Part shown: one piece after another, positions 18,843-36,984 of the stretch
Layout: each line of letters begins with the position of its first letter
How positions within the stretch are numbered: the first letter of the stretch is position 1
Source of the DNA: a virus
Lineage: Duplodnaviria; Caudoviricetes
Strand: one strand, 5' to 3'
IMG/VR virus record: IMGVR_UViG_3300033072_001056
Span: 3,710-67,709 of that record
DNA: 64,000 bases
The notes under the pieces: generated by a model
The model's input: only the letters and a program-made list of their open reading frames with translations
Databases searched by the model: none
Told to the model about the DNA's origin: nothing
Made by a program: the position numbers and the translations under genes

Positions 18843-19142
18843 TTATAGAACGAGAAGCAAATCCGAATACACTACGCTTTTATACGTCACTCCGTCAATT
18901 GTAATGTCGCTTGATTTGTAGTTGTCGTACATAACGGTACTGCCTTCTTTTATTTTGCTATCAGAAAGCTCGGATTCTATCAAATTGCCAATTGACAAAA
19001 CCGTTCCTTTTCTGTACTTCTCATTCTTCTCAGTAGCAGACGAAAGGTCTAATCCGCCACTTGTCAAATTCTTTGTTTTTTCTTCTCTAATAATCACGTT
19101 GTAATTCAACGCTTGCCCCGGGAAATTATTGCTCGACTCCAT
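18843..19142 (-). CDS. groES: Co-chaperonin GroES
   Basis: VIIREE...TSGGL...KGTVLSIG...KEGSTVMY. Confidence 0.85.
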   Translation of the reverse strand: MESSNNFPGQALNYNVIIREEKTKNLTSGGLDLSSATEKNEKYRKGTVLSIGNLIESELSDSKIKEGSTVMYDNYKSSDITIDGVTYKSVVYSDLLLVL

Positions 19143-20703
19143 AGGTTCCTCTTTTGTTGTAAATGATGTTATCTGTCATAATCAATGTGTTGCTTGCGGA
19201 AACAGCATTAATCAATGCGTGTTTGATTGCTTTTGTAGAGTCTACGATTCCGGCTTCAATCATATCTACTTCTTTGTAGTTTTTAACGTCGTAGCCCATA
19301 GGGTATTTCCCTATTTTAATACTATTGTCTACAGATGCATTTGATAGTATTTTGTTTAAAGGAGCAATTATTGACTCACTTACAATTTTTGATTTGCATA
19401 CAAAAATACTAGAAGCTCTAAAAAGAGCAACTCCGCCTCCCGCTAAAACACCTTCTTCTCTTGCCGAACGAACAGCACAAACGGCATCATCAACGCGATC
19501 AATTTTCTCTTGCAATTCACTTTCGATAATACTGCCTACTTTTATGATGGAAACACCACCTGATAGTTTTGAAATACGTTCTTTGTTGTATTTCTTTTCC
19601 AATTGGCTTTTTGAAGAATTGGCTATTTGCTCAAGTTCGGCAATTTTAGACTTGATTTTGTCTAATACAGCATCAGTCAAATTAGGAGTTACAATAGTAT
19701 CGGTTTTGCCCGAAACAACTTTTTTACAAGTTCCCATAAACTTCGCTTCACGACCTTTAAAGTCGTCACCCGATAATGGTGTGATTAACTGAGTTTCGCA
19801 AATCATAGCAATATCGTTTAGGTAATCTCTGCGTTTGTTTCCGAAACTTGGCGCATTGACAAGCATACAACTTAGTTTTCCTGATATTACATTTTGCAAA
19901 ATCACATTTTTCACGGGGAAAGATTGAGAATCTGACCAATCGGCAATAACCACAATTTGTCTATTGTTTGCCAAGGCAAATTCTAAGAACGGTTGTATTT
20001 GTCTGAACGTTTTAAATGTGATGTTTGCGCAAACAATTAGCGGATTGTCTTCAAATTCGCAAGTTCTGTTCATAAAATTATTGATGAACAACTCATCTGC
20101 CAATGCTCCTTCTACAAGCGTACCGTCAACGTGGTCTAAATACGTTTCTTCATTTACGCTTCTCGAATAAGATACTGAACCGTACTCTCCCGCTTTAATA
20201 AAAGCATCAGCTACAATCTTGGCGATTTCTTCATCTGAATTTGCCGACGTGTGTGCGATGTCGTAGATTAATTTATCGGTAACGGGAATAGAGATTTCGT
20301 CTAAGTATTTAATGATTAAATCTCGGGATTTTTCAATTTCGTTCTTTACGTCAATTGGCGATTTTCCTTCTTTTATTGCCTTTAAAGAGTTTTCAAAAAA
20401 CGCTTGTAAAAGAACTATAGTACAAGTTGTAGAATCACCAGCGTAATCAACCGTTCTTTGGGACGCTTGTTTGGCAATTTCGCAAGCCATAGATTCAACG
20501 GGGTCGTCAAGAAAAATTGATTGAAGTGTTTTGTAGCCGTCTTTCGTAGGCTCAGGAATTCCAAATTGAGATTCGACAAGAACTGTTCTCCCTCTGTAGC
20601 CCATTGTCGAAGAAACGACTTTTGATAATTTAGTAAGACCGCTCAATAGTCTTTCTTTAGCATCTTCATCAGACGCAATAGTTTTGAGAATTCTTTCGCT
20701 CAT
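19126..20703 (-). CDS. groEL: Phage chaperonin GroEL
   Basis: TMGYRGR, TKDG, AGDSTT, ERISKLSGGVS, DDAVCAVRSAREEGVLAGGG, GIVDSTK; no GGM tail. Confidence 0.95.
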   Translation of the reverse strand: MSERILKTIASDEDAKERLLSGLTKLSKVVSSTMGYRGRTVLVESQFGIPEPTKDGYKTLQSIFLDDPVESMACEIAKQASQRTVDYAGDSTTCTIVLLQAFFENSLKAIKEGKSPIDVKNEIEKSRDLIIKYLDEISIPVTDKLIYDIAHTSANSDEEIAKIVADAFIKAGEYGSVSYSRSVNEETYLDHVDGTLVEGALADELFINNFMNRTCEFEDNPLIVCANITFKTFRQIQPFLEFALANNRQIVVIADWSDSQSFPVKNVILQNVISGKLSCMLVNAPSFGNKRRDYLNDIAMICETQLITPLSGDDFKGREAKFMGTCKKVVSGKTDTIVTPNLTDAVLDKIKSKIAELEQIANSSKSQLEKKYNKERISKLSGGVSIIKVGSIIESELQEKIDRVDDAVCAVRSAREEGVLAGGGVALFRASSIFVCKSKIVSESIIAPLNKILSNASVDNSIKIGKYPMGYDVKNYKEVDMIEAGIVDSTKAIKHALINAVSASNTLIMTDNIIYNKRGTYGVEQ

Positions 20704-25751: not shown

Positions 25752-27731
25752 ATGACGAAGATTTCGAACAAAACAGCCTATCCGCAACAGTCACCATTAA
25801 CTCTTAATGACTACTTTCCTATTACGGACGCAAGCACTAGCGGAAAAGTTACAAAAACAACTACGCTTGAAGAAGTACAAAACTTGCTTTTTGCGGGTCT
25901 TTCGCCTGAAATTGGCGGAACTCTAAAAATAACTCCGGTCGATTACAATGGCGAATTAACTTCTCCGGCAGCGGTAGCAAATCAATTAACTCCGGCACTT
26001 ATTATTGCTCAGTATGAAGTTGTCATATTTTCTGTAAATGGCGATAAGTATGTTCTGAAACTTCAAGATTTGACAATTGGTATTGCGCAACCGGCTATTT
26101 CCGATTCTGATTTTATAATGATTTCCGGATTTGCAAAACTTGGAACCGGAATAAATGTTCTTAAAGGATTCAATTCGTCAACCGGTAAACAAGAATTTTA
26201 CGCTATAAAATCAACCGGCTTAGATGTTTCTATTGTTACCGGTGATATTGTGATAGAAAGTAAAGCAGGGGCAAATTTAGGAGTGTCAGGACAAGCAATA
26301 TACAAAGGCTTAAATTCCACTTCTAAAATTCACGAATTCTACAAGATTGATTCTTCTGACTTTACAATTACCTTGGAAGATAATATTGTAAAAATAAACA
26401 ATCCGGTTGTTGTAGACACGCCAAGATTCTATGTAAACAGCGGATATGACATTGGCGGAACTGCTCCGGAAACCGGTAGCCCATCAAAACCTTTCAAGAC
26501 AATACAAGGTGCTATCGATGCGTTTATTGGAGAGGGAACAGCACAAAACCCTGAGTTTGAAGGTTCTGAAATTATAATTCAAAAAGGAATAGGGTATACA
26601 TTTACCGGTGATTTCGTTCTTAACGGAGCCACGATAATTTTAGAAGAAGGTACAGAAGTGACTTCGAACCCCGGCACGGGTACTTGGTTATGTGACTACG
26701 ATACATTATCAACTACTCAATCTGCTGTTTTAAGCATTATTGTAAATCAAGGCGCTTCGCTAATTTTAAACAAGAATGGCTTTAGAAACAAGGGAACATC
26801 TATAAACAACAATGCTTTTGCAGATGTCAAGTTGATAAGAATTTCCGGAACCGGTACAATACTTCAAAATGTTGTAGACACATCTAATTTTAACTATACA
26901 ATTTTAGAATCAAATTACGTTACTACAAATACATTTAAAAACGATTCTTCCGGTGTTTTTGAGATTCAAGGAGTTTCTTTGTCTGCTTTGACACAACAAA
27001 TATACAAAGTGGGAGGAAATAGTTTGCTTGTTTTTGATGAAGTGAATTTCTTTTCCGGAAACGCGGTTCAAAACGTAAACGTAAACTTAAAGTGCTTTGA
27101 TGCAATAGGTGGTGAGGTGAGAAAAAGTTTTTGTTTGATAGGCGCTGCTAACCAAACCGCAAGAGACGTTTTGTACTCTTTGAGTAAATCTTCTTTAATA
27201 CCGTGTACTTTGCTTATAACCGATTCTGTTTTTTCGGCAAATGTAGACACGCTTTTAAAAAACGAGACTTCACTTCAATCAACGGTAAATATGAAGTCTT
27301 GTAAAACAACTCTTTCTTCTGTTGTAGATATTGCAAAATCTCCAAATACAAAATGGATAAACTTATTTGCTTACAATTGTATATTTGACAGCGGTAGCGT
27401 TGACTATAGCGAAGTTGATTTAACAGCAAACAATACCATTAGTTCGTCAAATATTTTTGGCGGTAAACTAACTGAGAGTTTGCAGATTTTTGGATCAAGA
27501 GCGTTAGCAGTTGCCGGAGGATTAGCAAAAGGAAATGTTTTTGTAAACAGAAAAACTGTTAATGCCGGAAGCTTTGTTGTTGGTGTTGAATACCAAATTT
27601 TAACCATTGGAACAACAGACTTTACCGCAATAGGCGCATCAGCAAATACTGTTGGAATAAATTTCACCGCTTCGGGCGTTGGAACAGGAACCGGAACCGC
27701 GTACGCTCACACACTAGACATTTTAATTTAA
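25752..27731 (+). CDS. Tail spike/fibre protein
   Basis: YVNSGY...TGS.SKPFKTIQGAID motif then beta-helix-like region. Confidence 0.7.
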   Translation: MTKISNKTAYPQQSPLTLNDYFPITDASTSGKVTKTTTLEEVQNLLFAGLSPEIGGTLKITPVDYNGELTSPAAVANQLTPALIIAQYEVVIFSVNGDKYVLKLQDLTIGIAQPAISDSDFIMISGFAKLGTGINVLKGFNSSTGKQEFYAIKSTGLDVSIVTGDIVIESKAGANLGVSGQAIYKGLNSTSKIHEFYKIDSSDFTITLEDNIVKINNPVVVDTPRFYVNSGYDIGGTAPETGSPSKPFKTIQGAIDAFIGEGTAQNPEFEGSEIIIQKGIGYTFTGDFVLNGATIILEEGTEVTSNPGTGTWLCDYDTLSTTQSAVLSIIVNQGASLILNKNGFRNKGTSINNNAFADVKLIRISGTGTILQNVVDTSNFNYTILESNYVTTNTFKNDSSGVFEIQGVSLSALTQQIYKVGGNSLLVFDEVNFFSGNAVQNVNVNLKCFDAIGGEVRKSFCLIGAANQTARDVLYSLSKSSLIPCTLLITDSVFSANVDTLLKNETSLQSTVNMKSCKTTLSSVVDIAKSPNTKWINLFAYNCIFDSGSVDYSEVDLTANNTISSSNIFGGKLTESLQIFGSRALAVAGGLAKGNVFVNRKTVNAGSFVVGVEYQILTIGTTDFTAIGASANTVGINFTASGVGTGTGTAYAHTLDILI

Positions 27732-29290: not shown

Positions 29291-31951
29291 ATGAAAAATT
29301 TATCAGCAGATATTGAGATTGCTATTAAAGACGCAATTTCCGGAATGAATTTAGACATTAACATCTTAGATGTTGATGATGACAAATTAGCTACATTGAT
29401 GTCTTCTCGATTAGAATCATTTTCAGCCACAAAGGAAATGATAAAGCTTTGGCAAGAATCACCTAACGCGCCAAGCCAAGCAAAACTTAGAAAAAACGCA
29501 GAGGAACTTATAAAATCGGGAGAAAATTCGATAGAAGTACTTCGTCAAGCGCTTAGAAAAAAAATAGCCTTTAGCGAATTAGACACAGAGAAGTACGGAA
29601 AGGCTATTAAGTCCAAGCCCGTAATTTTTAAGGCAATTAACGAGATTAATGCCGGAGTACTATCTTTGAAACTTCAGTTAGACGCAGACCAATTAGACTT
29701 CAAAGAACGCGAATTTCGACGTGGATTTCCCGAGAAATTTGCTTCGCAAGAATTTTTTCCCGCAAAAGATTATCACAAGGAATGGTATGACAAAGAAACC
29801 GATTCGGTAATGATTTGTCCGCTTGGCACAAAAGGGAAAGTGATTACTCTTGACGGATTAAACATTATGCTTCCGGCGCCACCAAAATCAAAAAAGAAAA
29901 TACTTTTCAGTAATTTACCAAAAGAAGAACAGTATTGGCGAAGAATCGAACCTCCTCAAGGGCTTACTCCGGAAAACGAAGATGTGTACTACGATTTTAT
30001 TATCGAGGAATTCCGTAAGCGTAGGGAGGGAGTTTGGTTTATGAATAACGGTGAACCGGTATATCTTACCCCGGCGCATTATATGGCGTTACAATGGGTG
30101 AAAATGTTAGATACCGGCTCGTTTATGGATTTCAGATATGCGCAAGCAGAAATGTTTTACTTCACGCGCGCGTGTGTTTTAGATCCGCGATGTTTAGGAG
30201 AGCTGTTTGTAAAGTCACGTCGTACCGGTTTTACCTATCAGATTATTTGCGAAATGATAAATGACGGAACCGGAACATCAAATGCCAAACTTGGTATGAT
30301 TTCAAAAACCGGTGATGATGCCCAAGAAGCATTTTTAAAAATGACTTATGGTATTCAAAACTTACCATTCTTTTTTATACCGGTAGTCAAAGGCAAAATT
30401 GACAGTAAAACAGAAGTTGAATTTGCCAAGCCTTCAGATTCTAGTAAGGTTGCCAAAAAGAAAAAAGACAATAGTACCGATGATTACTTGAATACTTTGA
30501 TGAATTGGAAAACGACTACTGAATCTGCTTATGACGGACAAAGAATGTATCGTTTGTTAATTGACGAGGCGTCAAAACCACTACCCCCATTTAATCTTGA
30601 AACTTATTGGGGACGTGTATCTCCAACCATTAATAACGGTGGTAGGATTGTAGGTAAAATATACGTTGGTTCAACGGTAAACCCTATGAAACTTGGTGGG
30701 GACAAATTCTTGAGAATGTACAAAGGCGCTATGGTTTCAAAAAGAGACAAGGACACTCAAAGAACACCAAACGGTCTGTACGCCTACTTCTTGCCAGCTC
30801 ATAAAAACATGGAATTATTTACCGATAAATACGGAGTTTGTCATACTGTTGTACAGCCGGGCGAATCGTTTACCAATGTTTACGGAACTGAAATATTTGA
30901 AGGGTCAATTCAATATTTGGAAAATATCCGTCGCCAAAAAAGAAAGCAATCGGACATTTTGTACAATGAGGAATTGCGCGCTAATCCAATGACTGTTGAA
31001 GAAGCATTTAGAGATGAAGCTAAGGCAAGTATGTTTAATCTCGAGAAGATAAATGACCAAATTGCTTATAATGATTCTCAAGATATTGAGCAAAAACAAC
31101 TTGTTCGCGGTAATTTCCAATGGAAAGACGGGCAAAAAGATTCTGTCGTAGAGTGGCATCCAAATCCAAGAGGTAGATTTTTACTAAGTTGGATTCCACC
31201 TAAAGAATTACAGAATAAATGGGAGATGAAAGTCAATATGTTTGGTGGAAGAAGCAAGCATCCGTCTAATGAAGATTTAGGATGTCTTGGTATTGACTCT
31301 TATGATATTAATTCGACAGTTGATTCTAAATTAGAAAACACAGAGAACGGAAGCGAATGGTCGGGAGGTTCTAAAGGAGCAATATCCGGAGTTACTTCTA
31401 AATTCACATTGAAAGATGCCCCGAGCAACTCTTTCTTTTTAGAGTATATTGCCCGACCGGAAACAGCCGAGATGTTTTTTGAAGATTGTTTAATGGCTTG
31501 TGTGTTTTATGGTATGCCGGCGCTTGTCGAAAATAACAAAGCACGATTGCTTTATCACTTTAAAAACAGAGGTTACCGAGGGTTTTGTCTTAGCCGATTT
31601 GACAAGCCTTCTAACAGATTAAGTCCTACCGAAAAAGAAATTGGCGGAATTCCTTCAAACTCCGCGGACGTTATTCAAATGCACTATACTGCAATTGAGG
31701 CTTATGTAGAAAAATACGTTGGGTATTATACTCAAGGAGATGATTTAGCTCCGGTAAGAGAAGAAAATGAAATTGGTTCAATGCCGTTTAACAGAACATT
31801 GCGCGATTGGGCAAGTTTTAATATTTCAGACAGAACAAAATCGGATATTTCAATTGCCTCGGGTTATGCCTTAATGGGTGTAAACAGACATAGTTACAAG
31901 TTTCAAAACGAAGCACCGGCGCCAATTGCTTTTAAAATTCGTTATAATTAG
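29291..31951 (+). CDS. terL: Terminase large subunit with an ~150 aa N-terminal extension
   Basis: Walker A KSRRTGFT, Walker B LLIDEASK, nuclease GIDSYD, C-terminal D..IASGYALM. Confidence 0.9.
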   Translation: MKNLSADIEIAIKDAISGMNLDINILDVDDDKLATLMSSRLESFSATKEMIKLWQESPNAPSQAKLRKNAEELIKSGENSIEVLRQALRKKIAFSELDTEKYGKAIKSKPVIFKAINEINAGVLSLKLQLDADQLDFKEREFRRGFPEKFASQEFFPAKDYHKEWYDKETDSVMICPLGTKGKVITLDGLNIMLPAPPKSKKKILFSNLPKEEQYWRRIEPPQGLTPENEDVYYDFIIEEFRKRREGVWFMNNGEPVYLTPAHYMALQWVKMLDTGSFMDFRYAQAEMFYFTRACVLDPRCLGELFVKSRRTGFTYQIICEMINDGTGTSNAKLGMISKTGDDAQEAFLKMTYGIQNLPFFFIPVVKGKIDSKTEVEFAKPSDSSKVAKKKKDNSTDDYLNTLMNWKTTTESAYDGQRMYRLLIDEASKPLPPFNLETYWGRVSPTINNGGRIVGKIYVGSTVNPMKLGGDKFLRMYKGAMVSKRDKDTQRTPNGLYAYFLPAHKNMELFTDKYGVCHTVVQPGESFTNVYGTEIFEGSIQYLENIRRQKRKQSDILYNEELRANPMTVEEAFRDEAKASMFNLEKINDQIAYNDSQDIEQKQLVRGNFQWKDGQKDSVVEWHPNPRGRFLLSWIPPKELQNKWEMKVNMFGGRSKHPSNEDLGCLGIDSYDINSTVDSKLENTENGSEWSGGSKGAISGVTSKFTLKDAPSNSFFLEYIARPETAEMFFEDCLMACVFYGMPALVENNKARLLYHFKNRGYRGFCLSRFDKPSNRLSPTEKEIGGIPSNSADVIQMHYTAIEAYVEKYVGYYTQGDDLAPVREENEIGSMPFNRTLRDWASFNISDRTKSDISIASGYALMGVNRHSYKFQNEAPAPIAFKIRYN

Positions 31952-31952
31952 T

Positions 31953-31983
31953 TTTGGTAGATTAAAAAATATTACTATATTTG
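31953..31983 (+). promoter_or_regulatory. Promoter of tRNA array 1
   Basis: TTTG-N19-TATATTTG. Confidence 0.85.
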
Positions 31984-32000
31984 CCTCAAATAAAGAAGAA

Positions 32001-32075
32001 ATGAAAAAAATGATTACCATAAAAACGATTGCAAGAGTTGGGGATAATTTTCCAAGCAAGGGGACTATGGTGTAA
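32001..32075 (+). CDS. Leader peptide 1 (MKKMITIKTIARVGDNFPSKGTMV)
   Basis: Short ORF between promoter and terminator; codons 2-16 match the array-1 tRNAs. Confidence 0.8.
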   Translation: MKKMITIKTIARVGDNFPSKGTMV

Positions 32076-32099
32076 ATTTTGTTTAGTTTTAACACATAA

Positions 32100-32137
32100 A
32101 AAATCCCCTAATAACATTAGGGGATTTTTATTTTTTT
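32100..32137 (+). terminator. Attenuator terminator 1
   Basis: ATCCCCTAAT-AAC-ATTAGGGGAT plus T-tract; left arm also pairs with leader AGGGGA (32059-64). Confidence 0.85.
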
Positions 32138-32211
32138 GGGGGCGTATGTTTCAAGGCTGACGACTTTGATTTGCAATCAGAGTGAGGTGATTTCGATTAT
32201 CACCGTCTCCA
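32138..32211 (+). tRNA. tRNA-Ala(UGC)
   Basis: Cloverleaf, loop TT-TGC-AA, G3:U70. Confidence 0.85.
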
Positions 32212-32226
32212 CAACAATAAGACAAT

Positions 32227-32256
32227 ATGAAAACAAGTAAAAAGTTTAAGAAGTAA
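32227..32256 (+). promoter_or_regulatory. Lys-rich minigene MKTSKKFKK upstream of tRNA-Lys
   Basis: 5 of 9 codons are Lys; followed by mutually exclusive hairpins at 32257-32292. Confidence 0.65.
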
Positions 32257-32288
32257 TCTGCTCTCAATGATTGGGAGTAGAAATCTAT

Positions 32289-32361
32289 TCCCTCTAAACA
32301 TTATTGGTGGATGTACCAAACTTTTAATTTGGGAAGCCGTGTTCGAATCACGGAGGGGGAA
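32289..32361 (+). tRNA. tRNA-Lys(UUU)
   Basis: Cloverleaf, loop CT-TTT-AA. Confidence 0.9.
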
Positions 32362-32366
32362 CGAAA

Positions 32367-32439
32367 CGGAATATAGCTCAATTGGTGGAGCAATCGCCTG
32401 ATACGCGAGAGGTTATAGGTTCAAGTCCTTTTATTCCGA
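32367..32439 (+). tRNA. tRNA-Ile(GAU)
   Basis: Cloverleaf, loop CT-GAT-AC. Confidence 0.92.
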
Positions 32440-32445
32440 CAAAAC

Positions 32446-32518
32446 GCGAGTATGGTGTCAATGGTTAACATTAGAGACTTCCAATCTCAAGATGTCAGTT
32501 CGATTCTGACTACTCGCT
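32446..32518 (+). tRNA. tRNA-Gly(UCC)
   Basis: Cloverleaf, loop CT-TCC-AA, U73. Confidence 0.92.
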
Positions 32519-32523
32519 CAAAA

Positions 32524-32596
32524 GGTCTATAGGTCAAATGGGTAAGATGTCCGGCTGTCGCCCGGTACGGAGAGGGTTCGAATCCCTCATAGACCG
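32524..32596 (+). tRNA. tRNA-Asp(GUC)
   Basis: Cloverleaf, loop CT-GTC-GC, G73. Confidence 0.9.
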
Positions 32597-32602
32597 CTAA
32601 AT

Positions 32603-32675
32603 GCTTCTGTAATTCAATTGGTAGAAACCCGCATTTGTAACGCGGAAGTTGCAGGTTCGACTCCTGTCAGAAGCT
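32603..32675 (+). tRNA. tRNA-Thr(UGU)
   Basis: Cloverleaf, loop TT-TGT-AA; A31-C39 mismatch. Confidence 0.88.
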
Positions 32676-32680
32676 CAATT

Positions 32681-32751
32681 GCCCAATTTGCATAACGGAA
32701 GTGCCGTTGTTTTACACGCAACAGCAGGGTGTTCGATTCACTCATTGGGTA
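32681..32751 (+). tRNA. tRNA-Val(UAC)
   Basis: Cloverleaf, loop TT-TAC-AC. Confidence 0.88.
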
Positions 32752-32756
32752 CAAAT

Positions 32757-32827
32757 GTCGGTATAGTTCAACGGAAGAATAAGACCCTTCTAAGGTTTTG
32801 ATGAGAGTTCGAGTCTCTCTACCGATT
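32757..32827 (+). tRNA. tRNA-Arg(UCU)
   Basis: Cloverleaf, loop CT-TCT-AA. Confidence 0.9.
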
Positions 32828-32832
32828 CAATA

Positions 32833-32909
32833 GGGCTTGTATCGCCTCTGACTCATAATCAGTAGAAAGCGTAATCGGTCACACGGCGGTTCAATTCCGT
32901 CCAAGCCCA
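32833..32909 (+). tRNA. Atypical CAU tRNA (Ile2-like) with the D-arm-like hairpin 3' of the anticodon arm
   Basis: Perfect acceptor and T arms; anticodon arm CTGA-CTCATAA-TCAG starts 9 nt after the acceptor strand. Confidence 0.7.
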
Positions 32910-32913
32910 CAAA

Positions 32914-32985
32914 GGAAGTATGGTGAAATGGTATCACGACAGACTGTTAATCTGTTAGTTTCAAGTTCGAGTCTTGATATTTCCG
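32914..32985 (+). tRNA. tRNA-Asn(GUU)
   Basis: Cloverleaf, loop CT-GTT-AA, G73. Confidence 0.92.
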
Positions 32986-32992
32986 CTAAAAA

Positions 32993-33023
32993 TTTGATAA
33001 TTTGAATTTTATTTTTACATTTG
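32993..33023 (+). promoter_or_regulatory. Promoter of tRNA-Met and array 2
   Basis: TTTG-N19-TACATTTG. Confidence 0.85.
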
Positions 33024-33026
33024 CAG

Positions 33027-33098
33027 GGCGTGAAGGTGTAATCGGTTGCATTGGAGTCTCATAAACTCTACGGGGTGGTTCGAATCCACGACACGCTA
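33027..33098 (+). tRNA. tRNA-Met(CAU), elongator type (Ile2 not excluded)
   Basis: Loop CT-CAT-AA, G2:C71 and C3:G70; lacks the initiator GGG/CCC stem. Confidence 0.75.
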
Positions 33099-33112
33099 CA
33101 AAGACATATATT

Positions 33113-33184
33113 ATGAGAAATTTAAGTTTATGTTCGTTTTATTGGTTGTCGTTTAAAAACGACACGGGATATAGCGCGCATTAA
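33113..33184 (+). CDS. Leader peptide 2 (MRNLSLCSFYWLSFKNDTGYSAH)
   Basis: Codons 4-14 match the array-2 tRNAs. Confidence 0.8.
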   Translation: MRNLSLCSFYWLSFKNDTGYSAH

Positions 33185-33210
33185 ATTTACCTTGTAATTA
33201 TTTAAAAGCT

Positions 33211-33239
33211 AATCCCGTTCGAAAGTTCGGGATTTTTTT
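33211..33239 (+). terminator. Attenuator terminator 2
   Basis: AATCCCG...CGGGATT plus T5; left arm pairs alternatively with leader CGGGATATAGC (33165-75). Confidence 0.85.
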
Positions 33240-33242
33240 ATT

Positions 33243-33326
33243 GGGAGTAACGCTCGAATTGGTTAGGCGCTTGACTGTAAATCAGGTAATCTGCATAGAT
33301 AGGTGGTTCGAATCCATCTGCTCCCA
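33243..33326 (+). tRNA. tRNA-Tyr(GUA)
   Basis: Loop CT-GTA-AA, long variable arm. Confidence 0.9.
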
Positions 33327-33332
33327 CAAAAT

Positions 33333-33406
33333 AGCTGTATGGCGGAACGGTAGACGCATCAGACTTAAAATCTGTACAACTGTGGGTTCGACTCCCACTA
33401 CAGCCA
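33333..33406 (+). tRNA. tRNA-Leu(UAA) lacking the long variable arm
   Basis: Loop CT-TAA-AA; 6-nt variable region; A1-C72 mismatch. Confidence 0.85.
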
Positions 33407-33414
33407 CAAAAAAA

Positions 33415-33501
33415 GGAGGTATAACCCAAGTTGGTCTAAGGGGCGCTGTCTTGAAAACAGTTGGTCGTAATGGCGTGTAAGTTCGAGTCTTACTGCCTCC
33501 G
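33415..33501 (+). tRNA. tRNA-Ser(UGA)
   Basis: Loop CT-TGA-AA, long variable arm, G73. Confidence 0.92.
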
Positions 33502-33507
33502 CAAAAT

Positions 33508-33591
33508 GGAGAGTAAACTAATCAGGTGGTTAGACTTGTTTGCTAAACAATGGGTGGGTAAAACCTTGGGAATCGTGTTCTCTGCTCTCCG
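33508..33591 (+). tRNA. tRNA-Ser(GCU)
   Basis: Loop TT-GCT-AA, long variable arm, non-canonical T-loop ATCGTGT. Confidence 0.85.
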
Positions 33592-33600
33592 CTATAAATT

Positions 33601-33671
33601 GCTTCTCAGCGTAGGTTGTGCCAATCGGTCTCCAAAACCGTATTGTAAAGGTTCGAATCCTTTGAGTCGCG
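33601..33671 (+). tRNA. tRNA-Trp(CCA), degenerate acceptor and short D arm
   Basis: Loop CT-CCA-AA, canonical T arm, two acceptor mismatches. Confidence 0.72.
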
Positions 33672-33676
33672 CAAAA

Positions 33677-33749
33677 GGAAATTTGGCAGATAAGGTTATT
33701 GCGCTCGACTGAAAATCGAGAGGGCTCGGATCGTTACCGAGAATTTCCA
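33677..33749 (+). tRNA. tRNA-Phe(GAA)
   Basis: Loop CT-GAA-AA; T-loop ATCGTTA. Confidence 0.88.
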
Positions 33750-33754
33750 CAAAC

Positions 33755-33825
33755 GACAAGAAGCCTGACGGAGAAGGGTGCGGTCTGCAAAACCAAACAT
33801 CGCGGTTCGATTCCGCGTCTTGTCT
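33755..33825 (+). tRNA. tRNA-Cys(GCA)
   Basis: Loop CT-GCA-AA, U73. Confidence 0.88.
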
Positions 33826-33833
33826 CAAATTAG

Positions 33834-33905
33834 AACGCAATGCAAGATTCGAACTTGCGTCTTTTGGTTCGTAGCCAAAGATTTTTCCAATTAAACTAAT
33901 CGCGC
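33834..33905 (-). tRNA. tRNA-Arg(ACG)
   Basis: Loop CT-ACG-AA on the minus strand. Confidence 0.9.
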
Positions 33906-33910
33906 ATTTG

Positions 33911-33991
33911 TACGGACGAGAGGACTTGAACCTCCAAAGCTAACGGGTCTAAACCGCCAAGATGTGCCATTCTCAATAAAGCCACGTCCGC
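33911..33991 (-). tRNA. Atypical tRNA-Leu(UAG): enlarged D region, no long variable arm
   Basis: Acceptor and T arms intact; loop TT-TAG-AC; ~26-nt D region. Confidence 0.72.
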
Positions 33992-33996
33992 AATTG

Positions 33997-34068
33997 GGTG
34001 TTTTCGGGTCTCGAACCCTGTTCTCCGGATTCACAGTCCGGCACTTTACCTGTTAAGCTAAAAACACC
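33997..34068 (-). tRNA. tRNA-His(GUG)
   Basis: Loop CT-GTG-AA; encoded G-1:C73. Confidence 0.88.
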
Positions 34069-34074
34069 ATATAG

Positions 34075-34147
34075 TTTCTTTGTCAAGACTCGAACTTGAA
34101 CAACGAGAGTCAAAGTCTCGTATGCTAACCAATTACATCACAAAGAA
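34075..34147 (-). tRNA. tRNA-Gln(UUG)
   Basis: Loop CT-TTG-AC; U1:A72. Confidence 0.9.
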
Positions 34148-34153
34148 TTTTAG

Positions 34154-34225
34154 TAACGCATACGGGATTCGAACCCGTGATTAGAAATAGAAAGTTTCTT
34201 GTGCTGACCACTACACTAATGCGTC
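34154..34225 (-). tRNA. tRNA-Glu(UUC)
   Basis: Loop CT-TTC-TA (U at position 37). Confidence 0.88.
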
Positions 34226-34230
34226 TTTTG

Positions 34231-34307
34231 TCTAGTTGGCAGGAATCGAACCTGCGTAACTCCCGCTTCCAAGGCGGGCGAGTATATCCATCTGCTCCGA
34301 CAACTAG
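34231..34307 (-). tRNA. tRNA-Pro(UGG)
   Basis: Loop CT-TGG-AA; C1:G72, A73. Confidence 0.9.
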
Positions 34308-34311
34308 AAAT

Positions 34312-34340
34312 AAAAAAAGCCTCCCAATTACGGAAGGCTT
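34312..34340 (-). terminator. Attenuator terminator 3
   Basis: AAGCCTTCCG-TAAT-TGGGAGGCTT plus T-tract; left arm pairs alternatively with leader CGGGAGG (34379-85). Confidence 0.85.
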
Positions 34341-34365
34341 TAGCTAATATATTTTATTTACATAT

Positions 34366-34440
34366 TTACACGCTTGTTCCTCCCGATAAAATATCCGGCT
34401 CTTGAAGACGTTGTTCAGTATGTAATTTTAATCTTTTCAT
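34366..34440 (-). CDS. Leader peptide 3 (MKRLKLHTEQRLQEPDILSGGTSV)
   Basis: Codons 7-15 match the array-3 tRNAs; near-leaderless ATG. Confidence 0.8.
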   Translation of the reverse strand: MKRLKLHTEQRLQEPDILSGGTSV

Positions 34441-34444
34441 ATTG

Positions 34445-34474
34445 CAAATATATGAATACTTTTTAAGTCTGCAA
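34445..34474 (-). promoter_or_regulatory. Promoter of tRNA array 3
   Basis: TTG-N19-TATATTTG on the minus strand. Confidence 0.85.
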
Positions 34475-34484
34475 GTATTTATAG

Positions 34485-34531
34485 AAAAATAATATGAATT
34501 CTACAACTTATATAAAGTTTTTCTATCTTTG
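34485..34531 (+). promoter_or_regulatory. Late-class promoter (portal)
   Basis: AAAAATAATAT box starting 39 nt before TATCTTTG. Confidence 0.65.
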
Positions 34532-34554
34532 TTGTGTAAATATTTATCAGACAA

Positions 34555-36984
34555 ATGGATAATAGTAAGAACGGCAATTTCAATATAAGCCCAATGGTTA
34601 GTTTTCCAAGTCAATTGGAGCCATTCGAAGTAAAAAAAACTAAAGAGTGGGGGCTAAGATTGGCTCAGTCAATACAAAGCGATTGGTTTTACGGGATGAA
34701 TACCGGAAACTTTTTGTCTTCTCAATTCAATTTGCAAAGACGTGATTTTTTACAAAGACGTTTATACGCAAAAGGATTGCAGTCAATGGACAAATACATA
34801 GAGCAATTCAAATCAGACGGAGACAAGTCGTTCTTAAACCTTCCAACTAAACCGATTAGTATTATCCCTAAATTAGTTGATGTGGTTGTTAATGGGATGG
34901 CCGACAGAGGTTATTCTATTCGTGCTACTTCAATTGACCCGATTGGTCACAAAGAAAGAGTAGCTTACAGAGAGCAGATTGAAACCGACGTTCTTTCAAA
35001 AGACATAATTGTTCAAGCAAAAGAAAAATTAGGCGTAGATGTGGCTAGTATGCCACTAGAACAACTTCCGGAGACCGACGAAGAATTGAACTTGCACATG
35101 GAACTTGAGTACAAGCAATCTATCGAGCTTTCTCAAGAATTGGCAATTGAGCAAGTAATGAATGACAACCGGTACAACGACAAAATAGACAGAATGGTTA
35201 AAAAAGACCTAACTATTTTGGGAGTTTCTTGGGTTAAACATCGTTTTGTTCCGGACAAAGGAATTGTAATCGAGTATGTAAATCCGGAAAACAAAGTGCA
35301 ATCATATACCGACGACCCTTATTTTGAAGATTGCTATTACCACGGAGAATTTAAGACGGTTCCGCTAACTCAAATTTATACGGATTACCAATGGCTTAAT
35401 CTTCCGGAAAACGCAGATATAAAAGCGCAAGTTGAATATTCAGCAAACGGATGGTGGGAATACAATTTGATTGCAAGCAACGACAGAATTAAAGGAGTTG
35501 CCAATTTGCTTTATTTTACATACAAAACCACAAGACCAAAGCAAAGAAAGATAAAACTCAAAGCCACCGGTGAGAAAAGAATTATCCCAATGGAATACAA
35601 AGGGAATCCGGACAAAAACCCAAACATTAAAATAACAACCGTAGAGGAAGAAGTTTTAATGGAAGGAGTTTATGTTTTAGGAACAGACATAATGCTTAAA
35701 TGGGAAGTTGCCGAATCTATGGTTAGACCAAAGTCTAACAGACAAAAGGTAATTGACCAATACATAGGTGTTGCTCCTAATATGGAAAGAGGTTATATTG
35801 ATTCGCCGGTTGCTAGAATGATACCTGTAGAAGACCAATTAAACATACTCGAATTAAAAGGCGCTCAAATCATTCAGAAAATACAACCTGACGGGTTTAT
35901 GATTGATGTGGATGCAATTGCCGAGTTAGATTTAGGAAACGGCTCCAAATTAACCGTTCAAAATGTTGTAGATATGTTTTGGCAAACCGGTAGTATTTTC
36001 ACTAGAAGTTTCGGAGCAAGTGGCGACCCAATGTATTCTAAGCCTATTACTGAATTAAGAACCGGAGACTCTATAACTAAACTACAAGCACTTACCGCTC
36101 AAAAAGCGCAGTATATGGATCAGATGCGTGACGTTATCGGATTAAACAAAGTTTCCGATGCTTCAACACCTGATAAAGATTCTTTAGTAGGAGTTCAAAA
36201 GCTTGCTTCTTTAAATTCAAATATTGCGACTCGTCATATTTTAGATGGGGCTTCTGACATAACAAAAAGAATTGCATTAGCTATTACATATCGAATTCAC
36301 GACTTATTAAAGTTCACCGAATTAAAAGAAGATTTTTCAAGAAAAATAGGTTCGACATCGGTTAAGACGTTAGAGTCTGTAAAAGATTTGCATTTGCACG
36401 ATTTCGCAATTTACTTAGATTTACATTTAGACGATGAGGAACGCGCGAAATTAGAACAAGATATGTCATTGGCAATTGACAAAGGGATGATGAGCATTCA
36501 AGATAAATACAAGGTTTTGAATATTAAAAACTTCAAACTTGCGTTGTCTTATATGACAATTTTGGTCAATAAATATCAGAAAAAACAACAAGAGCAAAAA
36601 GCCCAAGAGTACAAGATACAAGCCGATGAGAACATACGTGCTGCACAAAGCGCAGAGCAAGCTCGTCAGCAAACGGCTCAAATGATTAGTCAATTTGATA
36701 TGGCCAAGCAACAATTGGTTAATGACGGATTGATACAAAAAGAGCAAGTCAAAGGACAGGAAGACCGTTCTACATTGGAAATTAAAATCGAAGGAGATTT
36801 GATGGTTGCCCAAGCACAATCAGGTGTTAAAATGCAGATTCAAGAAGAAATGGAAAACCGTAAGGATGAAAGAGAGAATCTTAGATACACCAATCAAAGC
36901 AAGGAAAACTACAAAAAAGAAACCGGCGGTGCGCCAATTGACTTCACTCAAAACGATGAAATAAACGAAGTGTTTAAAATGTAA
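34555..36984 (+). CDS. Portal protein (crAss/phi14:2-like)
   Basis: Size and position after terL; FPSQ...K...EWG, RRLYAKG.Q, PISIIPK.VDVVVNGM motifs. Confidence 0.85.
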   Translation: MDNSKNGNFNISPMVSFPSQLEPFEVKKTKEWGLRLAQSIQSDWFYGMNTGNFLSSQFNLQRRDFLQRRLYAKGLQSMDKYIEQFKSDGDKSFLNLPTKPISIIPKLVDVVVNGMADRGYSIRATSIDPIGHKERVAYREQIETDVLSKDIIVQAKEKLGVDVASMPLEQLPETDEELNLHMELEYKQSIELSQELAIEQVMNDNRYNDKIDRMVKKDLTILGVSWVKHRFVPDKGIVIEYVNPENKVQSYTDDPYFEDCYYHGEFKTVPLTQIYTDYQWLNLPENADIKAQVEYSANGWWEYNLIASNDRIKGVANLLYFTYKTTRPKQRKIKLKATGEKRIIPMEYKGNPDKNPNIKITTVEEEVLMEGVYVLGTDIMLKWEVAESMVRPKSNRQKVIDQYIGVAPNMERGYIDSPVARMIPVEDQLNILELKGAQIIQKIQPDGFMIDVDAIAELDLGNGSKLTVQNVVDMFWQTGSIFTRSFGASGDPMYSKPITELRTGDSITKLQALTAQKAQYMDQMRDVIGLNKVSDASTPDKDSLVGVQKLASLNSNIATRHILDGASDITKRIALAITYRIHDLLKFTELKEDFSRKIGSTSVKTLESVKDLHLHDFAIYLDLHLDDEERAKLEQDMSLAIDKGMMSIQDKYKVLNIKNFKLALSYMTILVNKYQKKQQEQKAQEYKIQADENIRAAQSAEQARQQTAQMISQFDMAKQQLVNDGLIQKEQVKGQEDRSTLEIKIEGDLMVAQAQSGVKMQIQEEMENRKDERENLRYTNQSKENYKKETGGAPIDFTQNDEINEVFKM

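What the first reader, a model, noticed from the sequence alone, without database searches (positions are those of the whole stretch)
32833..32909. tRNA with re-ordered arms: anticodon arm first, D-loop-like hairpin in the variable position
Acceptor (GGGCTTG/CAAGCCC, A73) and T arm (GGCGG-TTCAATT-CCGTC) are perfect. There is no D arm after position 9: the anticodon hairpin CTGA-CTCATAA-TCAG follows almost directly. A D-like hairpin GCGT-AATCGGTC-ACAC, with the GG dinucleotide and the same GTAATCGGT as the D loop of the tRNA-Met at 33027, sits between the anticodon and T arms. The acceptor is Ile-like, so it may be an Ile2 (lysidine) tRNA for AUA, and leader 1 contains an ATA codon (inference). 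The topology could evade nucleases that recognise the canonical L-shape.
Basis: partly seen in the sequence, partly recalled or inferred. Interest (0 to 1): 0.75.

Follow-up and report, generated by a model that had tools for sequence, protein, structure and literature searches.

The report
Rewired non-cloverleaf phage tRNA (CAU)
This 77-base phage gene is a conserved transfer RNA whose D-arm is not missing: it forms by pairing two strands on either side of the anticodon arm. I found no paper describing this non-cloverleaf layout, and this copy most likely reads the isoleucine codon AUA.

Summary
The element at 32833-32909 is real. Rfam scores it as tRNA (33.7 bits) only by deleting the D-arm; ARAGORN misses it.

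It belongs to a large, mostly viral family. I collected 125 distinct sequences, about 160 viral loci in all.

In every member a 3-bp helix (here CGC 32843-45 with GCG 32869-71) encloses the anticodon hairpin. This helix is paired in 100% of sequences, with compensatory changes at all three pairs. A true D-loop (A14, R15, G18G19) follows its 3' strand. R15 covaries with the base before the T-stem (Levitt pair).

Members carry only Ile (GAU, UAU, CAU) or Arg anticodons. They replace the matching canonical tRNA in phage tRNA sets.

The window's CAU copy shows published tRNA-Ile2 marks (G3-C70, C4-G69). It sits beside a Met-type canonical CAU tRNA and an Ile(GAU) tRNA, with no UAU tRNA. AUA makes up 27% of Ile codons. 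So a lysidine-dependent AUA reader is the best guess (about 0.7); Met is the rival.

No expression or charging data exist. No paper describing this layout was found. This scan has already met the same family on other DNA, for example Felix O1 Arg-UCU.

The parts
32833..32839 (+). Acceptor stem, 5' strand (GGGCTTG); includes G3 and C4
   Evidence: Pairs 7/7 with 32902-32908. Acceptor pairs covary across the family.
32840..32842 (+). U8, A9 and an invariant U that faces U32872 (a U-U at the 13:22-like layer)
   Evidence: Invariant in 125 sequences, though partly fixed by my search patterns. One variant has an A-U pair here (L113).
32843..32845 (+). 5' strand (CGC) of the long-range D-stem; runs on into the anticodon stem, so it takes the place of canonical 23-25
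   Evidence: 100% paired with 32869-32871 across 125 sequences; both-sided changes 37/69/43. Also RNAalifold and MI.
32846..32847 (+). C (26-like, pairs with G32865) and U (27-like, U-U with U32863)
   Evidence: C-G in 124/125. These positions were fixed by my patterns, so their conservation is not independent.
32848..32862 (+). Anticodon hairpin: stem CTGA/TCAG, 7-nt loop CTCATAA, anticodon CAT at 32854-32856
   Evidence: Stem pairs covary (72, 58 and 88 both-sided changes). U33 and A37 are present.
32863..32868 (+). Connector U-A-G-AAA: G pairs with C32846; AAA is a conserved 3-nt bulge between the anticodon stem and the D-stem
   Evidence: Invariant in the alignment, but GAAA was part of my search patterns. 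Felix O1 has a different connector.
32869..32872 (+). 3' strand (GCG) of the long-range D-stem plus U; takes the place of canonical 10-13
32873..32881 (+). D-loop placed after the anticodon arm: A14 (32873), R15 (32874), G18G19 (32877-78), U20 (32879), A21-like (32881)
   Evidence: T40/A41 are invariant and GG is over 96% conserved; these were not fixed by pattern 2. Position 20 is T in Ile-type members and A in Arg-type members (MI col 23:48).
32882..32884 (+). Short connector C-A-Y to the T stem; the last base is the Y48 partner of R15
   Evidence: Columns 42:54 are AU in 68 and GC in 39 of 125 (87% paired; MI rank 15). In this window it is A:C.
32885..32901 (+). T arm GGCGG-TTCAATT-CCGTC
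32902..32909 (+). Acceptor stem 3' strand (CAAGCCC) and discriminator A73; no encoded CCA
   Evidence: There are 4-nt spacers to tRNA-Arg (ends 32828) and tRNA-Asn (starts 32914), as elsewhere in the array.

Best explanation
The gene encodes a working elongator tRNA with a rewired core. After U8-A9 the chain runs straight down one strand of the D-stem into the anticodon stem, and returns up the other side. A conserved AAA bulges out there, and the chain then forms the second D-stem strand. Only after that does it make the D-loop, whose G18G19 meet the T-loop, before a 3-nt connector leads into the T stem.

Compared with a cloverleaf, the block '10-21' (one D-stem strand plus the D-loop) has moved from before the anticodon arm to after it. 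The stack of D-stem on anticodon stem becomes one continuous hairpin of about 10 layers. The L-shape, elbow and core contacts are probably kept (inferred).

Like its neighbours in the array, it would be cut out by host RNase P and 3' nucleases and receive CCA from the host. For this CAU member I propose that host TilS converts C34 to lysidine, IleRS charges it, and it reads AUA. AUA is frequent in this AT-rich Flavobacteriaceae-type phage.

Shown: the conserved secondary structure, the tertiary-pair covariation, and the way family members stand in for missing canonical tRNAs.

Inferred: the 3D fold, processing, lysidine formation, Ile charging and decoding.
For: Structure:
- The long-range helix is 100% paired with compensatory change at all 3 pairs in 125 distinct sequences; the whole structure is 97.6% paired against 35-43% for slid controls.
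- RNAalifold gives the same structure, and the top MI pairs are the same.
- R15:Y48 covaries (AU 68, GC 39).
- Position 20 is A in Arg-type and U in Ile-type members. A20 is the classic ArgRS identity element (established knowledge).

Function:
- Phage tRNA clusters with a rewired GAU member have a canonical GAU tRNA in 1/17 cases, against 30/33 for the others (p 3e-9).
- Clusters with a rewired ACG member have a canonical ACG tRNA in 0/11, against 10/39.
- Kehishuvirus tikkala and Streptomyces phage Jay2Jay carry a canonical Ile(UAU) tRNA plus a rewired Ile(GAU) and no canonical GAU.
- The gene sits in the array with the same 4-nt spacers as its neighbours.
- Close relatives keep it with doubly compensated stem changes.

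Ile2 identity:
- It has G3-C70 and C4-G69. Silva et al. 2006 (PMC1635315) report G3/A3 with C70/T70 as excluding Met and fMet, and C4-G69 as frequent in Ile(CAU).
- The CAU class has C4-G69 in 34/38, against 24/62 in the GAU and UAU classes (p 3e-7).
- The canonical CAU tRNA at 33027 has C3-G70 and G4-C69, which is Met-like.
- Clusters with a rewired CAU member have a canonical UAU tRNA in 2/18, against 15/30 (p 0.011), and all 18 have a canonical GAU.
- AUA is 18.6 per 1000 codons, 27% of Ile codons.
- With the anticodon masked, the CAU class forms a near-single clade.
Against: No RNA, processing, modification or charging data exist for any member.

The 3D fold is inferred from conserved nucleotides only.

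C5-G68, the second E. coli TilS determinant, is absent here (U5-A68). Silva et al. say Met/Ile discrimination is profile-like and clade-dependent.

8/38 CAU members have C3-G70. 7 of 18 rewired-CAU clusters show no canonical CAU tRNA within the stretch I hold, so in those phages the rewired gene could be the only Met reader.

The cluster counts come from partial, phylogenetically related loci, so the p-values overstate independence.

Several 'invariant' positions were fixed by my search patterns.

The phage has no TilS of its own.
Confidence: 0.62

Rival explanations
1. Same rewired fold and a working tRNA, but an elongator tRNA-Met that reads AUG. C34 stays unmodified (or becomes ac4C) and MetRS charges it.
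For: CAU is the Met anticodon, and MetRS relies mainly on it (established knowledge). 7/18 rewired-CAU clusters show no canonical CAU tRNA in the held stretch. 8/38 CAU members have C3-G70. C5-G68 is absent here.
Against: The window already has a Met-type canonical CAU tRNA at 33027 (C3-G70) and no other AUA reader. G3-C70 is reported as a negative discriminator for Met and fMet (PMC1635315). C4-G69 is specifically enriched in the CAU class. All other family members are Ile or Arg, never another amino acid. Canonical UAU tRNAs are depleted where the rewired CAU is present.
Confidence: 0.2
2. A tRNA-like element that does not decode. Possible roles include an RNase P/RNase Z processing signal in the array transcript, or a decoy that soaks up a host tRNA-targeting nuclease or a modification enzyme.
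For: No evidence of charging exists. Phage tRNA arrays hold other odd tRNA-like elements, for example 33601-33671.
Against: The anticodon loop (U33, A37, A38) and a 7-nt loop are conserved. Anticodons are restricted to two amino acids, with matching identity nucleotides (A20 for Arg, A73 for Ile). Members stand in for exactly the canonical isoacceptor that is missing. A mere processing signal would need none of this.
Confidence: 0.08
3. One reading: no D stem at all, and a local D-like hairpin GCGT-loop-ACAC in the variable position.
For: In this one sequence 3 of 4 pairs can form.
Against: Only 55% of cells are paired across 125 relatives. The second pair forms in 3/125, and there is no compensatory pattern. 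The G of GCGT covaries with the upstream strand instead.
Confidence: 0.02
4. A decayed or scrambled tRNA pseudogene.
For: ARAGORN misses it, and the Rfam score is only just above threshold.
Against: More than 125 distinct relatives occur in phages of Bacteroidota, Actinomycetota and Proteobacteria hosts, with compensatory changes in all four helices.
Confidence: 0.02

Closest known systems
Canonical bacterial tRNA-Ile2 (CAU, lysidine; e.g. E. coli ileX), as classified by Silva et al. 2006 (PMC1635315)
   Same: CUCAUAA anticodon loop, A73, G3-C70 and C4-G69, standard T arm, D-loop nucleotides A14, R15 and G18G19. It is co-resident with separate Ile(GAU) and Met(CAU) tRNAs.
   Different: The D-stem is not a local hairpin. 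Its two strands lie on either side of the anticodon arm, and the D-loop follows the anticodon arm. C5-G68 is absent. Modification and charging are untested.
Metazoan mitochondrial D-armless tRNAs, e.g. mt-tRNA-Ser(AGY) (reviewed in PMC7609411)
   Same: No D hairpin between the acceptor and anticodon stems; missed by standard finders.
   Different: Those have lost the D stem and the D-loop/T-loop elbow contact, and need adapted partner proteins. This RNA keeps a D stem, a full D-loop with GG and the Levitt pair, and would use ordinary bacterial machinery.
allo-tRNAs and (8/4) tRNAs of bacteria and phages (Mukai et al., PMC5389517)
   Same: Natural non-standard tRNA architectures found by metagenome mining, some of them in phage tRNA clusters.
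   Different: Those change stem lengths (8/4, 9/3) but keep the cloverleaf order of arms. Here the order of strands in the core is changed.
Circularly permuted tRNA genes of the red alga Cyanidioschyzon merolae (from my own knowledge; not checked here)
   Same: The order of tRNA segments in the gene differs from the textbook order.
   Different: There the permutation is undone by circularisation and cutting, so the mature tRNA is a normal cloverleaf. Here acceptor 5' and 3' ends are in the normal places, no such processing is plausible, and the mature RNA itself would be non-cloverleaf.
Other members of the same rewired family, seen here and in earlier notes of this scan
   Same: Same long-range D-stem around the anticodon arm and a D-loop after it. 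Examples: Ile(GAU) in Kehishuvirus tikkala and about 77 Streptomyces phages, and Arg(UCU) in Felix O1 at 25951-26029.
   Different: This one carries CAU and belongs to a separate CAU clade with C4-G69. No cultured phage with a CAU member was found.

Membership tests
tRNA (Rfam RF00005) | Score at or above the curated gathering threshold | tested here: met
   33.7 bits against 29, reached with the D-arm deleted and an 18-nt insertion.
tRNA (Rfam RF00005) | 7-bp acceptor stem with discriminator; 5-bp T stem with a T-loop of the TTCRAnn type | tested here: met
tRNA (Rfam RF00005) | Anticodon arm with a 7-nt loop, U33 and purine 37 | tested here: met
   CTGA/TCAG plus a U-U layer; loop CTCATAA.
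tRNA (Rfam RF00005) | Local D-arm hairpin between position 9 and the anticodon stem (cloverleaf order) | tested here: not met
   Only 6 nt lie there. The D-stem partner and the D-loop lie 3' of the anticodon arm.
tRNA (Rfam RF00005) | Processed, CCA-tailed, aminoacylated and used by the ribosome | not testable with these tools
   No RNA run on record holds it.
   93 bits, E 3.6e-22. The window sequence is in the training set, but canonical tRNAs score under 20 bits.
tRNA-Ile2 (lysidine, AUA) | CAU anticodon with G3/A3 and C70/T70 (excludes Met and fMet per PMC1635315) | tested here: met
   G3-C70.
tRNA-Ile2 (lysidine, AUA) | C4-G69 and C5-G68 (E. coli TilS determinants; frequent in Ile(CAU)) | tested here: inconclusive
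   C4-G69 is present; 5-68 is U-A. The determinants are known to differ between clades (PMC1635315).
tRNA-Ile2 (lysidine, AUA) | A separate Met tRNA and Ile(GAU) tRNA in the same set, and no other AUA reader | tested here: met
   Ile(GAT) at 32367, Met-type CAT at 33027, no TAT tRNA.
tRNA-Ile2 (lysidine, AUA) | C34 converted to lysidine by TilS; charged by IleRS | not testable with these tools
   No TilS in the phage; the host enzyme would be needed.
Initiator tRNA-fMet | 1-72 mismatch, three G-C pairs at 29-31:39-41, A11-U24 | tested here: not met
   G1-C72; anticodon stem CTGA/TCAG.
Mitochondrial-type D-armless tRNA | Loss of the D stem and of the D-loop/T-loop interaction nucleotides | tested here: not met
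   D stem and G18G19 are conserved.

The most novel reading that the evidence does not exclude
These are fully functional, natural topological isomers of tRNA. They would be the first non-cloverleaf elongator tRNAs working with ordinary bacterial synthetases, EF-Tu and ribosomes. On this reading the rewiring is kept in phages of several bacterial phyla because it makes their Ile and Arg tRNAs poor substrates for tRNA-targeting nucleases. Those nucleases could be host defence enzymes or the phage's own host-tRNA-depleting enzymes, reading the D-arm or its connectivity.
Probability: 0.2. Interest if true: 0.95.

Novelty: new variant of a known kind. Interest (0 to 1): 0.8.

Why it matters
[quoted passage not shown] A widespread natural family that keeps the L-shape contacts but threads the chain differently would have several consequences:
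- The cloverleaf order would not be required for bacterial-type translation.
- Engineers would gain a naturally tested non-canonical scaffold.
- tRNAs "missing" from phage tRNA sets would be explained. Such genes are currently unannotated or mislabelled, for example as tRNA-Leu, Val or Phe in Streptomyces phages.
- A blind spot in tRNA finders would be exposed.

For this phage it would supply the AUA reader that its AT-rich genes need.

Cultured carriers make the idea directly testable: Kehishuvirus tikkala, Streptomyces BE-cluster phages and Felix O1.

Tried and rejected
- Megablast of the tRNA region against cultured phages found nothing.
- The first pattern scan was mostly chance hits; 5 of 51 were true.
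- Expression: no RNA holder is listed. The runs I laid were contigs, probably DNA, and say nothing on transcription or RNA ends.
- The phage has no TilS of its own (PF01171).
- Comparing the acceptor stem with the phage's own canonical Ile(GAU) tRNA showed no similarity, so it was uninformative.
- The nearest cultured relatives by terminase (Flavobacterium Elemovirus, Cellulophaga phages; 56% identity) have terminase and portal adjacent, with no tRNA array between them. They give no cultured CAU member.
- A CAU-type query against cultured phages returned only GAU-type members.
- An Arg(UCU) family query did not reach Felix O1 by BLAST. The covariance model did.
- The Chryseobacterium and other isolate hits of the genome scan were coding-sequence false positives.
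- I considered and rejected a permuted gene restored by circularisation, and an intron. The acceptor ends are in normal positions, three junctions would have to be recut, and nothing resembling a splicing motif is present.
- Literature searches for a prior description found none.

Full report
WHAT IS THERE

The window is a 67.7-kb IMG/VR phage record. About 22 tRNA genes lie between the large terminase (29291-31951) and the portal gene (34555-36984).

The element at 32833-32909 lies 4 nt after tRNA-Arg(UCU) and 4 nt before tRNA-Asn. ARAGORN does not call it. Rfam's tRNA model reaches 33.7 bits (gathering 29), but only by replacing the 15 D-arm positions with 4 nt and inserting 18 nt in the variable region.

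A LARGE FAMILY

Three pattern scans of IMG/VR were run. Together they gave about 160 loci and 128 distinct sequences of the same 75-79-nt architecture.

The anticodons are CAT, GAT and TAT (all but two with A73) and ACG, TCT, CCT and TCG (mostly G73). A scan of 185,579 species genomes added CCG. It gave only about 32 true members, mostly in MAG contigs.

No other amino acid appears, although the loop pattern CTNNNAA would also fit Lys, Asn or Thr.

A covariance model built from 125 members scores the window element at 93 bits and the window's canonical tRNAs below 20 bits. The window therefore holds exactly one member.

STRUCTURE

The three bases after U8-A9-U (CGC, 32843-45) pair with the three bases that precede the D-loop motif (GCG, 32869-71), and this helix encloses the anticodon hairpin.
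- Across 125 distinct sequences the helix is paired in 100% of cells, with both-sided changes in 37, 69 and 43 sequences.
- The whole proposed structure is 97.6% paired, against 35-43% when partners are slid by 1-3 columns.
- RNAalifold predicts the same helix without my input.
- The top mutual-information pairs are exactly the four helices.

I reject it.

Two further signals show that the segment after the helix is a genuine D-loop:
- The purine after the invariant U-A (R15) covaries with the pyrimidine just before the T stem (A:U 68, G:C 39 of 125). This is the Levitt 15:48 pair.
- The base after GG is A in Arg-type and U in Ile-type members, and it is coupled to the middle anticodon base. 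A20 is the classic ArgRS identity element (established knowledge).

HOW IT IS WIRED (INFERENCE FROM THE ABOVE)

The 5' strand of the long-range helix is continuous with the 5' strand of the anticodon stem. It therefore occupies the place of canonical 22-25, followed by C as position 26.

The 3' strand of the anticodon stem continues through G (pairs with C26, so 44-like) and a conserved AAA bulge. It then enters the other D-stem strand (the place of 10-13), followed by A14, R15, G18G19, 20 and an A21-like A. A connector C-A-Y48 then leads to the T stem.

The D-stem/anticodon-stem stack becomes one hairpin of about 10 layers (4 + U-U + C-G + 3 + U-U). This is the same count as 5 + 26:44 + 4 in a cloverleaf.

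In effect the block 10-21 has moved behind the anticodon arm. The three canonical core junctions (9 to 10, 21 to 22, 45 to 46) are replaced by 9 to 22, 45 to 10 and 21 to 46.

U8, A14, A21, R15:Y48, G18G19 and the T-loop are all retained, so an L-shape with a normal elbow is likely. No 3D evidence exists.

ARE THEY WORKING tRNAs?

The strongest evidence is complementarity within phage tRNA clusters. Counts use ARAGORN calls in the loci held, restricted to clusters with at least 10 canonical tRNAs:
- A canonical Ile(GAU) tRNA is present in 1 of 17 clusters with a rewired GAU member, against 30 of 33 others (p 3e-9).
- A canonical Arg(ACG) tRNA is present in 0 of 11 clusters with a rewired ACG member, against 10 of 39 others.

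In the cultured crAss-like phage Kehishuvirus tikkala and in Streptomyces phage Jay2Jay, the annotated sets contain Ile(UAU) but no Ile(GAU). An unannotated rewired GAU gene fills that gap (87 and 92 bits).

The loci are partial and related to one another, so the p-values are optimistic. The direction of the effect is consistent, however.

Close relatives of the window phage keep the gene with doubly compensated changes in the anticodon and T stems.

WHICH AMINO ACID HERE?

Silva et al. 2006 report that G3/A3 with C70/T70 excludes Met and fMet, and that C4-G69 is frequent in Ile(CAU) (PMC1635315).
- The window element has G3-C70 and C4-G69.
- The canonical CAU tRNA at 33027 has C3-G70 and G4-C69.
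- Among rewired CAU members, C4-G69 occurs in 34 of 38, against 24 of 62 rewired GAU/UAU members (p 3e-7) and 11 of 68 canonical CAU tRNAs in the same loci.
- G3 or A3 occurs in 29 of 38 rewired CAU members.
- Clusters with a rewired CAU member all have a canonical GAU tRNA (18/18) and rarely a canonical UAU tRNA (2/18, against 15/30 elsewhere; p 0.011).
- With the anticodon masked, the CAU members form an almost single clade; the window's copy sits in a supported set of 27 sequences, all CAU.
- The phage is 35% G+C. It uses AUA for 27% of its Ile codons and has no other AUA reader.

I therefore favour tRNA-Ile2, which depends on host TilS because the phage has none of its own. Met remains a live rival: 5-68 is U-A, 8 of 38 CAU members have C3-G70, and some clusters show no other CAU tRNA.

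HOST AND CONTEXT

The terminase is 56% identical to those of Flavobacterium Elemovirus and Cellulophaga phages. In those phages terminase and portal are adjacent, so the tRNA array is an insertion here. A Flavobacteriaceae-type host is likely.

KNOWN OR NEW?

Full-text searches found no description of this layout.
- The review of non-canonical tRNAs does not mention phages.
- Mukai et al. describe 8/4 and 9/3 cloverleaves, not rewired cores.
- A 2024 NAR abstract states that all known bacterial tRNAs are canonical.

Earlier notes of this scan describe the same family on other DNA: Arg-UCU in Felix O1-type phages and Ile-UAU/GAU in many uncultured phages. I confirmed the Felix O1 member with my own model: 25951-26029, 45 bits, unannotated, and overlapped by the start of an annotated HNH gene.

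What this report adds is the analysis of the CAU class.

LIMITS

There are no expression, processing, modification or charging data. Positions fixed by my search patterns (GTAT, CTC, CT..AA, GT.GAAA) cannot be counted as independently conserved. nhmmer did find variants outside those patterns, including an A-U pair in place of the U-U layer and a subfamily with a 2-bp long-range helix.

Noticed in passing
window 33601-33671 (+): A tRNA-like gene with a CTCCAAA loop (anticodon CCA, Trp). ARAGORN misses it and it falls below Rfam's threshold (24.1 bits). Its acceptor stem has two internal mismatches and the D region is odd. It would be the only Trp tRNA of the set.
   Followed up: partly
window 33243-33326 and 33755-33825 (+): Rfam finds tRNA-Tyr(GTA, long variable arm, 36.6 bits) and tRNA-Cys(GCA, 33.6 bits), but ARAGORN does not. 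With these the array covers all 20 amino acids.
   Followed up: no
window 32002-32076 and 32101-32131 (+): A 24-codon ORF just upstream of the first tRNA array uses codons for most of the tRNAs that follow (ATT, ATA, AAA, ACG, GCA, AGA, GTT, GGG, GAT, AAT). A terminator-like hairpin with a T run follows it. This looks like a leader-peptide control element.
   Followed up: no
window 31952-34554: The whole tRNA array sits between the terminase and portal genes, which are adjacent in the nearest cultured relatives (Flavobacterium Elemovirus; L301). It appears to be an inserted module.
   Followed up: partly
window 19126-20703 (-): A phage-encoded GroEL-type chaperonin (phrog_5725, E 5e-103). Cultured relatives annotate a co-chaperonin GroES next to the terminase.
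   Followed up: no
L208:3995-4071 (Streptomyces phage Jay2Jay KM652554) and relatives: Rewired Ile(GAU) genes are unannotated in about 77 Streptomyces phage records. A second rewired gene in some of these records is labelled tRNA-Leu, tRNA-Val or tRNA-Phe.
   Followed up: partly
L300:25951-26029 (Felix O1 NC_005282): A divergent rewired Arg(UCU) gene is unannotated. Its 3' part overlaps the annotated start of an HNH endonuclease CDS (26003-26395), so that start may be wrong.
   Followed up: partly
L076, L155, L111, L184: Some phages carry two or three rewired genes: two CAU in L076; two ACG in L155; ACG plus UCU in L111; two GAU-type matches in L184, one with a poor acceptor, plus a UAU type with a CTTATAC loop.
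   Followed up: no
L121:8852-8921, L143:3299-3367: A sub-family of Arg(UCU/UCG) genes has a 5-bp anticodon stem and only a 2-bp GC/GC long-range helix. It shows that the layout tolerates shifting one layer between the two stacked helices.
   Followed up: no
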